A stretch of 64,000 bases of DNA, taken from NCBI GenBank assembly GCA_977030845.1, contig OZ365113.1:13268001-13332000 (forward strand), written 5' to 3'. The position numbers are program-made. Origin of the DNA: Fimbriosthenelais zetlandica. Lineage: Eukaryota. This document shows positions 48,001 to 51,000 of this stretch, piece by piece; within the stretch, counting starts at the first letter, position 1, and each line of letters begins with the position of its first letter.

Positions 48001-51000
48001 CGTCCACAAAAACGCACATTTTTTTGCCAATAGTAGGACCGTAGACATTCTTTTTCCGCCTAAAACCAAATTGGAATATGATTATATGGCCTAGTATTTT
48101 GGTTAACTTAAATCCAATCAAGAAAAAATTTATTACTTACCTGTCGAGCTTGGAGAAGATTATATCCTGAGTCTGGTTTGAGGAGGTCCTTGCAGAGAAA
48201 TTGATGTTACAGATGGTGTATAAATCTCTGGGTAGCTGAAGCAGGTAGCTGTTAGTGATGGCCGACTTGCCAGTACCGGTAGGTCCAACAAATAACACTG
48301 GCTGACCATTACTGACGAACTGCCGGAGGAAGTACCGCAGTCTCTCAGTCTCCACAGTTTCAATGATTAGTTCATTCACCTGTAATGGTTCAATAATCTC
48401 TCTCAGAATCTTTACTTGGTATACTTGTTTCAAGGGTGACCAGACATTATGAGTGGTATAATATTTTCACAGTGTGGGGGACTGCTTATAAATAAAAAAT
48501 CATAAAACTTATAACGGTTTAACTCTAACCATGCATACACAAATACATAGAAATGGATTTTATACAGTGATTGAGAGGAGCAATCTGGACTGTAGGAATG
48601 ACAGAATATTTACATGAAAAGTAAAGATAGGTTCAAGATCATTTAGAATATCAATTCATAAATGCATACACCTTAATCAAATGCAAATTCACAATGTTAA
48701 ACCACATCATCTCACGAATCAAGAGAAATTATGATTTTGAGGACATCAGTCTGAATCAGGAACAGAAATATATCATGCAATATTATCAGGAACAAGATCA
48801 AGGTTGATAAAGGGTTTTTAAATTGGATGAATGCAGGCAGGGTTTGAGGATGGAGGAAATGAAGAGTAGAAAGACTAAGGTAGAGCTGGATACAAACTAA
48901 AAAAATAAATAAATGTAACAGTCGAGGTAACTTCTTTTAGGTGTCTTACCATCTGGCGCAGCTCGTGTTCCCTCTAAATGCGTATCACACAAAAGCAGAG
49001 ATATTGATAAATGAAAAAACCATGGACTGACCCAGCATTTACAGCAATGTACATTATCCTCAAAAAATTATAATTCACACCGAATTCAGAGACATATTTA
49101 ACACAAGTTGAAATTCGAGACATATTTAACACAAGTTGAAATTCAAGACAAAACTGCGGTCACCCAAGGAGGAAAAACGATGTGAAATATCTTTTACAAA
49201 AGAGTTTATAATGTAATATGAAAATGTAAGATGCACAGATACAGATTTTACCAGAATAGTAATGTATAGGCTTATCTAAGTTACCTTGATGTCCTGAAAA
49301 TATAGGTAAAAAAGATAAAAATGAAATTAAATATTAATAGCTCTAGATGGTCTAGATGGTCCATCATGAATGTTTGATTATCTGTGGAAACAAACATCTC
49401 GTCAAGAATGTCCAAATGGATTTTATATTAAAATTAAATATAAATTGTATAGAAGAATTTCATTTGAAAACAAATTAAACGTTCGACATATTAGTGTTAG
49501 ATAATGAAAAACATGTTAGATAATGACTGTGGAATAAAAAAACTTCCATTCGCCAAAAGTCCTATAAATCTTGTAGAGTTTTAATGAATTTGTATCATGC
49601 ACTGAATTTACGGTGAAATGCTTGTGTTTGTTTCACATATAATGTAATATAGTCTAGGTTTCAAATATAGGAATGAAATTCATGCATACTGATGCCACTA
49701 GCGCAAGATTGGTGTTAAATGCGCAGGTCTGCTGCAATCAAATTAACATTGGGCATCTTTCAAACAGGTTTATCATCCTGAGCACAATTTCACTGATGTA
49801 AAAGGTCAGCTGGTGGCATACAATATGCAGGAATTTATGAGGAATTCCATGTTCCGTTTTATACCTTAGCATTGCTTGCCACATTGATGGGTGGTACGAT
49901 GTTCCCCCAAGTGTTCCATGATCCAAACTGGCGATAAACGTAGACATGGTCGTAGACAAGGCCTTTCTTAGGAATTAGCAGAGTTCTGGCTATTTTCAGG
50001 TCTTTCGGTCTGCCCAGGCAATGTGAAAAATATTTAACTAATTTAGTACAGATTGCATGAATGAGAAACGTTTTTGCAACATGCTTTCTGCAATTATTGC
50101 TGCTGATTTCTACATGTATGCTGAGAAGCTGTGGTTAGTTACTGCCTAATATTGCAGAATGTTATTACTTTCTCTATTCAAATGTTCATAAGTACTCAAT
50201 GGTTTATGTTACAATACATGTTAGTAGAAAAAACAACAATGCAAAGCACAACAAGTTCGCAAGATATTGCATGTTCTACAATACAATCTGAATGCACATA
50301 TAAAAGCCAAAGTTATAAAGGTTTGCGCACAGCACGTTCTGAAACACATCTAGCTATTTTTTCCTTCGTGATGCAGACCTTGAATTTTTTATCGAGATCT
50401 GTGCCTTGGACCAAACTTTGCCAGGTTTTCAGTGATCCCATATTGGTTTGTGTATAAATATAACTACATGTAAACAGCTTGGATTGCTTGGGCATCAGGG
50501 CACAATTAGAGATTTTAAGTCGTGGTGGTCAAAGCAATATTGAAGGCAAACAAGCAAAGGAACATATTAATTGCTATATAGCAAACTTCAAAATAGGGTA
50601 CCGGTACCTTAATTAAATTGTGTATACCTAAATTGATTTCTAGCCCTACAATAGTATAGCTTATCTATAGACCTGTGTTGATTTTCTTAAATGAAGAAAG
50701 CATGGCAGAAAGCAAAGAAACTACTTGGATTATGTTGGTGTTTGTAAAAATATCATAAAAGAAACTTATGGGTTGGATATATTTGATCAATAAAATTCCT
50801 CAAACTATAGGGAATCTTTGTCAAAGCAAGTTAACATCCATTTTGAAAGCAATATGGTCGCTATTGGGAAGGCTAGTAATTATCCAACATCACAAAAATG
50901 AAAATGCCACACCTCAGTTCTGAGCCACAGCTAATGAAAGTTTTCCAAGTAAAAATTAGATAAACAAATGTTATAATAAAAAACCCATTTCGTAGTTACA

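What the first reader, a model, noticed from the sequence alone, without database searches (positions are those of the whole stretch)
48950..49293. Two candidate in-frame microexons (9 nt DIK, 24 nt REHELRQM) at the AAA2-AAA3 junction
Seen: both have good acceptors and donors, lengths divisible by three, and phase 0 matching the flanking exons (...SNAK | VNELII...). The 9-nt exon has an exceptionally clean pyrimidine tract. The 24-nt exon has a TGC ~22 nt upstream. Established: microexons typically remodel surface loops, and many animal ones are SRRM3/4-regulated through upstream UGC motifs. Inference: combined with exon A/B they could give a combinatorial set of dynein motor isoforms that standard annotation would miss.
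Basis: partly seen in the sequence, partly recalled or inferred. Interest (0 to 1): 0.65.

Follow-up and report, generated by a model that had tools for sequence, protein, structure and literature searches.

The report
Conserved microexons in a ciliary dynein
Two tiny in-frame exons (24 and 9 bases) lie in one intron of a ciliary dynein motor gene; relatives from molluscs to frogs encode a matching 8-residue insert at the same spot, so at least the longer one is very probably a real, ancient cassette exon.

Summary
They are phase 0/0 and lie in the gene's longest intron (1485 nt; median 116). The gene is a DNAH3-like axonemal dynein heavy chain of a spiralian-like animal, not human.

**24-nt exon: very probably real.**
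- At this exact junction, 32 of 69 proteins of the same paralogue clade carry an insert.
- About 21 share an acidic...L-R-x-M module (e.g. RDRELRIM scallop, KDRDLRIM oyster, LDDLSIRIM amphioxus).
- REHELRQM is the best match of 81,253 eight-residue windows in all six frames.
- Its splice sites alone are ordinary, with a weak acceptor.

**9-nt exon: probable.**
- It has the best splice-site pair of 42 in-frame candidates in the intron. Pairs this strong occur 3 times in 128 kb.
- Four relatives have an extra 3-4 residues ending I/C-K/R before the conserved module.

**Limits.**
- The SRRM3/4 (UGC) inference is unsupported: 42% of ordinary acceptors in this gene have a TGC nearby.
- Alternative use in this species is untested, because no transcript data were available.
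- This is a new member of a known kind. Orthologous inserts already sit in database models, but my four literature searches found no paper describing them.

The parts
49865..50009 (-). Upstream constitutive exon (145 nt; …PKDLKIARTLLIPKKGLVYDHVYVYRQFGSWNTWGNIVPPINVASNAK). It ends in phase 0. The donor AAG|GTATAA is weak, at the 20th percentile.
49294..49864 (-). Sub-intron 1 (571 nt) if the 9-nt exon is used. It contains TGCATG at 49686 and 49601.
49285..49293 (-). Candidate microexon 1: GACATCAAG = DIK, 9 nt, phase 0/0. Acceptor at the 94th and donor at the 81st percentile of this gene's real sites.
   Evidence: Prefixes YIK, LCK, PSIK and PNIR in relatives:
48974..49284 (-). Sub-intron 2 (311 nt) between the two microexons. 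It contains a 28-nt x 2.4 tandem repeat at 49083..49150.
48950..48973 (-). Candidate microexon 2: 24 nt = REHELRQM, phase 0/0. Weak acceptor (6th percentile), average donor (45th). Matches the [RK]D.[DE][LM]R.M insert of relatives.
48380..48949 (-). Sub-intron 3 (570 nt). It contains TGCATG at 48779 and 48535.
48141..48379 (-). Downstream constitutive exon (VNELIIETVETERLRYFL…GPTGTGKS…). This is the start of AAA3 and includes its P-loop. Acceptor at the 86th percentile.
34686..63346 (-). The host gene: a DNAH3-like axonemal dynein heavy chain of about 4200 residues in roughly 70 exons. Median intron is 116 nt. The microexon-bearing intron (1485 nt) is the longest.

Best explanation
**What it is.** The 24-nt piece is the orthologue of an ancient cassette microexon of one particular inner-arm (IAD-3 class, 'DNAH3-like') axonemal dynein heavy chain. 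It adds eight charged, helix-prone residues (REHELRQM) to the short tether between the AAA2 lid and the first strand of AAA3. The 9-nt piece (DIK) is probably a second, separate cassette that adds a three-residue prefix in front of it.

**Possible isoforms.** Both pieces are phase 0/0, so the tether can be lengthened by +0, +8 or +11 residues (perhaps also +3) without touching the AAA folds.

**What is shown.**
- The sequence, frame and splice signals.
- The matching peptide at the same junction in relatives.
- Presence or absence of the insert as an exact block among relatives.

**What is inferred.**
- Inclusion is regulated (cassette use). The weak acceptor of the 24-nt exon and the weak donor of the upstream exon leave room for this.
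- The length and charge of the AAA2-AAA3 tether tune coupling around the regulatory AAA3 site, or linker docking over AAA2/AAA3. This would give cilia or sperm of different cell types a differently tuned motor.
For: **Host gene**
- The best solved-structure match of the downstream exon is human DNAH3 (8j07_g3, E 7.5e-26).
- The whole gene aligns with DNAH3-like proteins of about 4200 residues at roughly 67-71% identity.

**24-nt exon**
- Five mollusc proteins carry RDRELRIM, KDRDLRIM, KDQELRIM, KDREMRTM or RDTDLRIM immediately before [IV]N.LII.
- Scored against these five with BLOSUM62, REHELRQM ranks 1 of 81,253 stop-free eight-residue windows in all six frames of the 64-kb window. It also ranks 1 of 299 AG-24nt-GT candidates (19.6, next 11.8).
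- Of 69 proteins of the paralogue clade, 32 have an insert at this exact point, 34 have none and 3 are unresolved.
- About 21 of them share the acidic…L-[RHQ]-x-M module, by my reading of those tables. They come from bivalves, gastropods, Lingula, Patiria, amphioxus, cartilaginous fishes and frogs.
- Close relatives differ by the exact block: Patiria has +11 residues while Acanthaster and Asterias have 0, with near-identical flanks. This is what a cassette exon gives.
- The 61 other proteins in the tree (canonical DNAH3 and others) show no such module. They fall outside the 67-tip paralogue clade (SH-like support 0.78).

**9-nt exon**
- It has the best combined splice score of 42 in-frame AG…GT candidates in the intron (19.5, next 10.7).
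- Pairs this strong occur 3 times in 128 kb (both strands) and in 0.1% of 2000 Markov-1 simulations of the intron.
- Lingula (YIK+DDWKLRTM), Patiria (LCK+NDRDYKVM), Nanorana (PSIK+DNEKDVHLM) and Pyxicephalus (PNIR+NNEKEVHLM) have a 3-4 residue prefix ending I/C-K/R. The frog Aquarana has the 9-residue module alone.

**Context**
- The host intron is the longest of the gene's inferred introns (1485 nt; longest of the 64 well-supported ones 1122 nt, median 116).
- It is unique within the window and matches no Rfam family.
Against: - There is no transcript evidence from this species, and no genome of a close relative could be compared.
- The 24-nt exon's splice signals alone are unremarkable. A candidate at least as good turns up in 44% of simulated introns, and its acceptor is at the 6th percentile.
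- For the 9-nt exon, the peptide evidence is three residues, and the pattern was read off four relatives after the fact.
- I could not tell whether those relatives encode the prefix as a separate exon or through an alternative acceptor.
- 34 of 69 relatives' models have no insert. These include both annelids (Capitella, Paralvinella) and several gastropods. The cause could be skipping, an annotation miss or true loss.
- Some database models may have been built partly from other species' proteins, so they are not fully independent.
- The functional effect is pure inference. No structure was modelled.
Confidence: 0.8

Rival explanations
1. Only the 24-nt exon is real. The 9-nt 'DIK' is a chance pair of strong splice-like sites, or a recursive-splicing or decoy site that helps remove an unusually long intron, and it never reaches the mature mRNA.
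For: - Most relatives with the module have it alone: 8 residues in 3 proteins and 9 residues in 12.
- Three residues carry little information.
- Two other AG…GT pairs of equal strength exist elsewhere in the 128 kb scanned.
- The intron is 13 times the median length. In some animals, long introns use intermediate splice sites (recalled).
Against: - The pair is the best of 42 candidates by a wide margin (19.5 against 10.7).
- It is expected in only 0.1% of simulated introns.
- It lies upstream of the 24-nt exon, in frame.
- Its last two residues (I-K) match Lingula's YIK and Nanorana's PSIK prefixes at the same place.
Confidence: 0.3
2. The 24-nt exon is constitutive in this species. It is always included, so there are no isoforms, and models without it in relatives are simply annotation misses.
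For: - Microexons are commonly missed by gene predictors (established).
- Insert-less models are scattered among close relatives of insert-bearing ones. Missed exons would also produce that pattern.
Against: - The weak acceptor (6th percentile) and weak upstream donor (20th percentile) fit regulated rather than constitutive use.
- Many relatives are RefSeq models named as one of several isoforms (X2…X12). I could not see whether those isoforms differ at this junction.
Confidence: 0.2
3. The exons are neural-type microexons switched on by SRRM3/4 (eMIC domain) through the upstream UGC.
For: - One TGC lies at -24..-22 of the 24-nt exon, next to a weak acceptor.
- The size and symmetry are typical of such exons (established).
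Against: - 27 of 64 ordinary acceptors of this gene (42%) also have at least one TGC within 40 nt.
- The 9-nt exon has none and has a strong acceptor.
- The host is an axonemal motor of motile cilia and sperm, not a neuronal gene.
- A different motif stands out more. UGCAUG, the Rbfox type (the name is recalled), occurs 4 times in the intron against 0.6-1.0 expected (P 0.004 by simulation; 2.2% of equal-sized windows).
Confidence: 0.08
4. Both pieces are chance open AG…GT stretches in a long intron and neither is an exon.
For: - 42 in-frame AG…GT candidates exist in this intron (27 on average in simulations).
- There are no transcript data.
Against: - REHELRQM ranks 1 of 81,253 against an insert that relatives carry at the very same junction.
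- The splice-pair strength of the 9-nt piece is also unusual.
Confidence: 0.03

Closest known systems
Eight-residue inserts in database models of mollusc DNAH3-like dyneins: Argopecten irradians isoform X4 (P0126, RDRELRIM), Magallana gigas isoform X7 (P0129, KDRDLRIM), Elysia crispata RRG08_013644 (P0009, RDTDLRIM)
   Same: - Same junction: 19 residues after the S-W-x-x-W block and directly before [IV]N.LII.
- Same length.
- Same pattern: basic, acidic, x, acidic, L, R, x, M.
   Different: - Identity to REHELRQM is 3-5 of 8 residues. Position 2 is E here and D in all five molluscs.
- Those are predicted proteins. I saw neither their genes nor their transcripts.
Eleven- and thirteen-residue inserts of Lingula anatina (P0131, YIKDDWKLRTM), Patiria miniata X4 (P0137, LCKNDRDYKVM), Nanorana parkeri (P0181) and Pyxicephalus adspersus (P0248)
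   Same: A two-part layout: a 3-4 residue prefix ending I/C-K/R followed by the conserved module. This is what DIK + REHELRQM would give.
   Different: Whether their prefix is a separate exon is unknown. In the window the two parts are 311 nt apart, so they must be separate exons.
Animal neural microexons dependent on SRRM3/4 (eMIC)
   Same: - 3-27 nt long and frame-preserving.
- Deeply conserved.
- They lengthen a surface or linker segment.
- Weak acceptor (true of the 24-nt exon).
   Different: - No UGC enrichment over this gene's ordinary acceptors.
- The host gene is ciliary.
- The 9-nt exon has a strong acceptor.
Short cassette inserts in myosin II motor domains (smooth-muscle 7-residue loop-1 insert; non-muscle IIB B1/B2 inserts). 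Recalled, not checked here.
   Same: A few residues added by a small cassette exon to a cytoskeletal motor domain near a nucleotide site. In myosin this changes ATPase rate and velocity. It is the best functional analogy.
   Different: A different motor superfamily. No kinetic data exist here, and the insert sits between AAA modules rather than in a loop of the active site.
Alternative splice forms of dynein motor domains noted by Kollmar 2016 (PMC5100056; passages seen), e.g. a mutually exclusive exon in a DHC1 gene
   Same: Alternative splicing inside a dynein motor domain is acknowledged there.
   Different: - The passages I saw give no microexon and no AAA2-AAA3 site.
- Splice forms were not analysed separately in that paper.

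Membership tests
Axonemal dynein heavy chain, IAD-3 class, DNAH3-like paralogue | Dynein motor domain order (DHC_N2, AAA1…AAA6, stalk, C-terminal domain) along the gene | tested here: met
   - tblastn of three full-length relatives covers window 63346..34686 in order.
- Pfam on relative P0126 gives the full domain set.
- The window's exons hit Dynein_AAA_lid and AAA_7.
Axonemal dynein heavy chain, IAD-3 class, DNAH3-like paralogue | Closer to the DNAH3-like clade than to canonical DNAH3 | tested here: met
   - The top 30 of 120 proteins by summed tblastn score are all from the DNAH3-like group (5250-5890 bits). The five lowest of the 120 score about 3600-4030.
- The group of 67 tips forms one clade, with SH-like support 0.78.
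Cassette microexon (30 nt or shorter, frame-preserving) | 30 nt or shorter, length divisible by three, no stop, same phase at both ends, canonical AG/GT | tested here: met
   Both pieces meet this.
Cassette microexon (30 nt or shorter, frame-preserving) | Orthologous peptide at the same position in other species | tested here: met
   - 24-nt exon: rank 1 of 81,253, and about 21 relatives carry the module.
- 9-nt exon: only four relatives have a matching prefix, so the result is weaker.
Cassette microexon (30 nt or shorter, frame-preserving) | Both inclusion and skipping seen in transcripts of the species | not testable with these tools
   - No transcript data were available.
SRRM3/4 (eMIC)-dependent microexon | UGC-containing element close upstream of the acceptor, above background | tested here: inconclusive
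   The 24-nt exon has one TGC at -24..-22 and the 9-nt exon has none. 27 of 64 real acceptors also have at least one within 40 nt.
SRRM3/4 (eMIC)-dependent microexon | Neural- or sensory-restricted inclusion that depends on SRRM3/4 | not testable with these tools
   No expression data were available.
Rbfox-type regulated exon (family name recalled) | (U)GCAUG in the flanking introns, above background | tested here: inconclusive
   - There are 4 TGCATG in the 1485-nt intron, at 49686, 49601, 48779 and 48535.
- The mean is 0.61 in Markov simulations (P 0.004).
- 2.2% of equal-sized windows on this strand reach 4, and that figure includes this intron's own windows.

The most novel reading that the evidence does not exclude
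A two-part microexon switch (a 3-4 residue prefix plus an 8-9 residue acidic module) has sat at the AAA2-AAA3 tether of one inner-arm dynein paralogue since the bilaterian ancestor. It is used cell-type-specifically, for example in sperm flagella versus epithelial or larval cilia, to retune the motor's AAA3-gated cycle or linker docking. That would make it a splicing-level layer of the 'multi-dynein' idea. The paralogue did not appear among the amniote or teleost hits listed.
Probability: 0.25. Interest if true: 0.7.

Novelty: new member of a known kind. Interest (0 to 1): 0.5.

Why it matters
Axonemal dyneins are thought to diversify by gene duplication, with one gene per position or task. 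A cassette insert kept at one exact inter-module junction from molluscs to frogs would show that splicing also diversifies these motors. It would also mark the AAA2-AAA3 tether as a functionally sensitive spot.

Practically, it flags two exons that gene predictors are likely to skip; about half of the relatives' models have no insert. It also gives a precise test: three PCR size classes differing by 9, 24 and 33 nt. The relatives that carry the module include tractable animals (oyster, sea star, amphioxus, Xenopus), where the effect on ciliary beating could be measured.

Tried and rejected
- **Isoforms within relatives.** I asked for the members of ten relatives' protein clusters, to see whether with-insert and without-insert isoforms coexist in one species. 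The tool answered that the database is switched off.
- **DNA-level conservation.** No relative's intron could be compared.
- **Short hits of the first protein search.** These 141-2000 residue hits were mostly stop-to-stop read-throughs from the intron, ending in Q at the acceptor. They say nothing about splicing. Only P0009 was informative.
- **A third cassette.** I looked in the intron for a counterpart of the gastropod 12-residue piece (ATQNSVFSTEVA / AISGSVFTAVDW) and of the Mytilus 12-residue insert. None of the 42 candidates resembled them by eye.
- **Other explanations for the long intron.** There are no repeat copies elsewhere in the window and no Rfam family at E ≤ 1. The only repeat is a 28-nt tandem.
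- **Structure prediction of the insert.** Not attempted. No stored natural protein with the insert is 1200 residues or shorter, and I built no joined model of the window's exons.
- **Literature.** Four searches found no paper on microexons in dynein heavy chains. One search failed on term length. For Kollmar 2016 I saw passages only. Its supplements, which may list splice forms, were closed.
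Full report
**What is there.** The finding lies on the minus strand, inside a compact gene that fills window 63346..34686.
- Read 5'→3', the upstream exon ends …GCT AAG|gt at 49865 (…PPINVASNAK).
- A 9-nt open piece, GACATCAAG (DIK), lies at 49293..49285 between ttttcag and gtaac.
- A 24-nt open piece (REHELRQM) lies at 48973..48950 between atttag and gtaag.
- The next exon starts at 48379 (VNELIIETVETERLRYFL…GPTGTGKS).
- All boundaries are phase 0, so every combination keeps the frame.
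- The window has one N run (28645..28780), which I left alone.

**The host gene.**
- The downstream exon's best solved-structure match is human DNAH3 (8j07_g3, residues 2044-2122, E 7.5e-26). The upstream exon matches the same chain weakly.
- Full-length 'dynein axonemal heavy chain 3-like' proteins of about 4200-4500 residues align along the whole gene at roughly 67-71% identity. These come from a brachiopod, molluscs and a nemertean.
- None is close enough to be the same species. I take the source to be an unannotated spiralian-type animal. It is not human, so the rule on human contigs did not apply.
- These DNAH3-like proteins form one clade of 67 tips, apart from 61 other proteins (canonical DNAH3 and others), with SH-like support 0.78. 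The window was not placed in that tree.
- In Kollmar 2016 (PMC5100056, passage of Table 1 seen), the sea urchin has four IAD-3 class genes, including a 'DNAH4', where human has three. That this clade is that fourth gene is only a lead.
- Pfam on the scallop protein P0126 puts the AAA2 lid at 1959-2132 and AAA_7 (AAA3) from 2152. The junction in question therefore lies in the roughly 20-residue tether between them.

**How the searches were run.** I searched the spliced model exon by exon. I did not build or search a joined model, so that step is left out.

**Gene structure and a splice-site yardstick.**
- From three relatives I inferred 75 candidate introns by frame arithmetic. I kept the 64 supported by at least two relatives.
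- The median intron is 116 nt. The intron holding the candidates is 1485 nt, the longest in the gene. Its upstream neighbour (1122 nt) is second.
- I built position weight matrices from the 64 donors and 64 acceptors, with leave-one-out percentiles. They give:
  - 9-nt piece: acceptor at the 94th percentile, donor at the 81st.
  - 24-nt piece: acceptor at the 6th percentile, donor at the 45th.
  - Upstream exon's donor: 20th percentile. Downstream exon's acceptor: 86th.

**Chance control for the splice signals.**
- The intron holds 42 in-frame, stop-free AG…GT pieces of 3-51 nt. DIK scores far the best (19.5). The next are a 3-nt 'M' that shares the 24-nt exon's donor (10.7) and REHELRQM (10.0).
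- Over both strands of the whole window (4751 such pieces), only 3 reach DIK's combined score.
- In 2000 Markov-1 simulations of the intron, 0.1% contain one that reaches it.
- A piece as good as REHELRQM's splice score appears in 44% of simulations.
- So the 9-nt piece is unusual by its signals, and the 24-nt piece is not.

**Relatives settle the 24-nt piece.**
- In the first protein search, only one junction-spanning hit had extra residues: Elysia crispata P0009, …IDEKAQ-RDTDLRIM-INALIV….
- Two further searches brought 69 proteins of the paralogue clade whose junction I could examine.
- Counted from the conserved S-W-x-x-W block, the upstream part is always 19 residues. After it, 34 proteins go straight into [VIL]N.LII, 32 have an insert of 2-23 residues, and 3 could not be resolved.
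- By my reading of those tables, about 21 inserts share one module:

| Length | Inserts and species |
|---|---|
| 8 residues | RDRELRIM (Argopecten), KDRDLRIM (Magallana), RDTDLRIM (Elysia) |
| 20 residues | Babylonia and Patella: a 12-residue piece followed by KDQELRIM / KDREMRTM |
| 11 residues | Lingula, Patiria |
| 9 residues | Amphioxus (LDDLSIRIM), cartilaginous fishes (e.g. ADGEHFHLR), frogs (e.g. TDEKDMQLM) |
| 13 residues | Nanorana, Pyxicephalus |
| Shortened | VWHLM (Rhinophrynus), ADGQDIR (Chiloscyllium) |

- Other inserts look unrelated: Mytilus, Mercenaria, Ptychodera, Symsagittifera, two rays, and the 'MM' of two sea urchins.
- Canonical DNAH3 proteins show no such module.
- Scored against the five mollusc inserts, REHELRQM is the best of 81,253 stop-free eight-residue windows in all six frames of the window (z = 5.0). 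It is also the best of 299 AG-24nt-GT pieces (19.6, next 11.8).
- It sits in the orthologous intron, in frame and flanked by AG and GT. Chance is not a serious explanation.

**The 9-nt piece.**
- Four relatives have a short prefix before the module: YIK (Lingula), LCK (Patiria), PSIK (Nanorana) and PNIR (Pyxicephalus). The frog Aquarana has the module alone.
- DIK + REHELRQM would reproduce that layout, and DIK shares I-K with two of the four.
- With its exceptional splice pair, this makes the exon probable (I put it near 0.7), not proven.
- The pattern was read after the fact. I could not see whether the relatives' prefix is a separate exon.

**Alternative or constitutive?**
- The insert is present or absent as an exact block between close relatives. 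Examples: Patiria versus Acanthaster and Asterias; Patella versus Lottia; Elysia versus Biomphalaria, Physella and Bulinus; ranid frogs versus Bombina and Discoglossus.
- That fits a cassette exon, but it also fits exons missed by annotation.
- The weak acceptor and weak upstream donor favour regulated use.
- The direct check, isoforms within one species, could not be made.

**Regulation.**
The TGC at -24..-22 is real, but 27 of 64 ordinary acceptors have one within 40 nt, and the 9-nt exon has none.
- As a lead only: TGCATG occurs four times in the intron, two upstream of the 9-nt exon and two downstream of the 24-nt exon. The expected number is 0.6-1.0 (P 0.004 by simulation; 2.2% of equal-sized windows on this strand).

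**Mechanism (inferred).**
- The inserts lengthen the AAA2-lid-to-AAA3 tether by 8 or 11 mostly charged residues, just before the first structural elements of AAA3.
- From established dynein mechanics, AAA3's nucleotide state gates the AAA1-driven cycle, and the bent pre-stroke linker lies over AAA2/AAA3.
- A longer, charged tether could therefore alter inter-module coupling or linker docking, and so beat properties. Nothing here tests that.

**Novelty.**
- Cassette microexons are a known kind, and the orthologous inserts already sit in predicted proteins of relatives.
- My four literature searches and the passages of Kollmar 2016 that I read showed no description of a microexon in a dynein heavy chain. 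Kollmar says only that some motor domains have alternative splice forms.
- Hence my rating: a new member of a known kind, of moderate interest.

Noticed in passing
It ends AAG|gtctgc in phase 0 (donor at the 20th percentile). At the position matching exon A's acceptor it has TG rather than AG, and the in-frame codon before it is a stop. It could be a decayed duplicate or a mutually exclusive exon with an unusual acceptor.
   Followed up: partly
window 49686, 49601, 48779, 48535 (minus strand): Four TGCATG motifs lie in the microexon-bearing intron, flanking the two candidates. About 0.6-1.0 are expected (P 0.004 by simulation; 2.2% of equal-sized windows).
   Followed up: partly
window 48952..48950, minus strand: An AG inside the 24-nt exon (ccag|ATG|gtaag) would give a 3-nt exon 'M' using the same donor. 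Its acceptor score (2.6) is slightly above that of the 24-nt acceptor (1.9). Some relatives have shortened inserts ending in M (MM in two sea urchins, VWHLM in a frog).
   Followed up: no
window 49083..49150: A 28-nt tandem repeat, 2.4 copies at 95% match, lies between the two candidate microexons.
   Followed up: no
window 34686..63346, minus strand: The dynein gene is very compact: about 4200 codons in roughly 70 exons over 29 kb, with a median intron of 116 nt. The long introns are 1485, 1122 and 989 nt (60314→59324), plus several of about 450-590 nt. They may be worth checking for further cassette exons.
   Followed up: no
window 34828..34805, minus strand: This is the only other minus-strand AG…GT piece as strong as DIK (24 nt, FTRRVRGE). 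It uses the inferred acceptor of the last coding exon and a strong GT 24 nt downstream, which may be an alternative donor or chance.
   Followed up: no
relatives: The DNAH3-like clade includes spiralians, echinoderms, hemichordates, amphioxus, tunicates, cartilaginous fishes, coelacanth, lungfish and frogs. No amniote or teleost member appeared among the hits listed, which may mean lineage loss of this paralogue. Kollmar's table lists a sea-urchin 'DNAH4' without a human counterpart.
   Followed up: partly
relatives P0122 (Babylonia) and P0127 (Patella): Both gastropods have a further 12-residue piece (ATQNSVFSTEVA / AISGSVFTAVDW) in front of the conserved 8-residue module, which suggests another, gastropod-specific cassette at the same junction. 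I saw no counterpart in the window's intron.
   Followed up: partly
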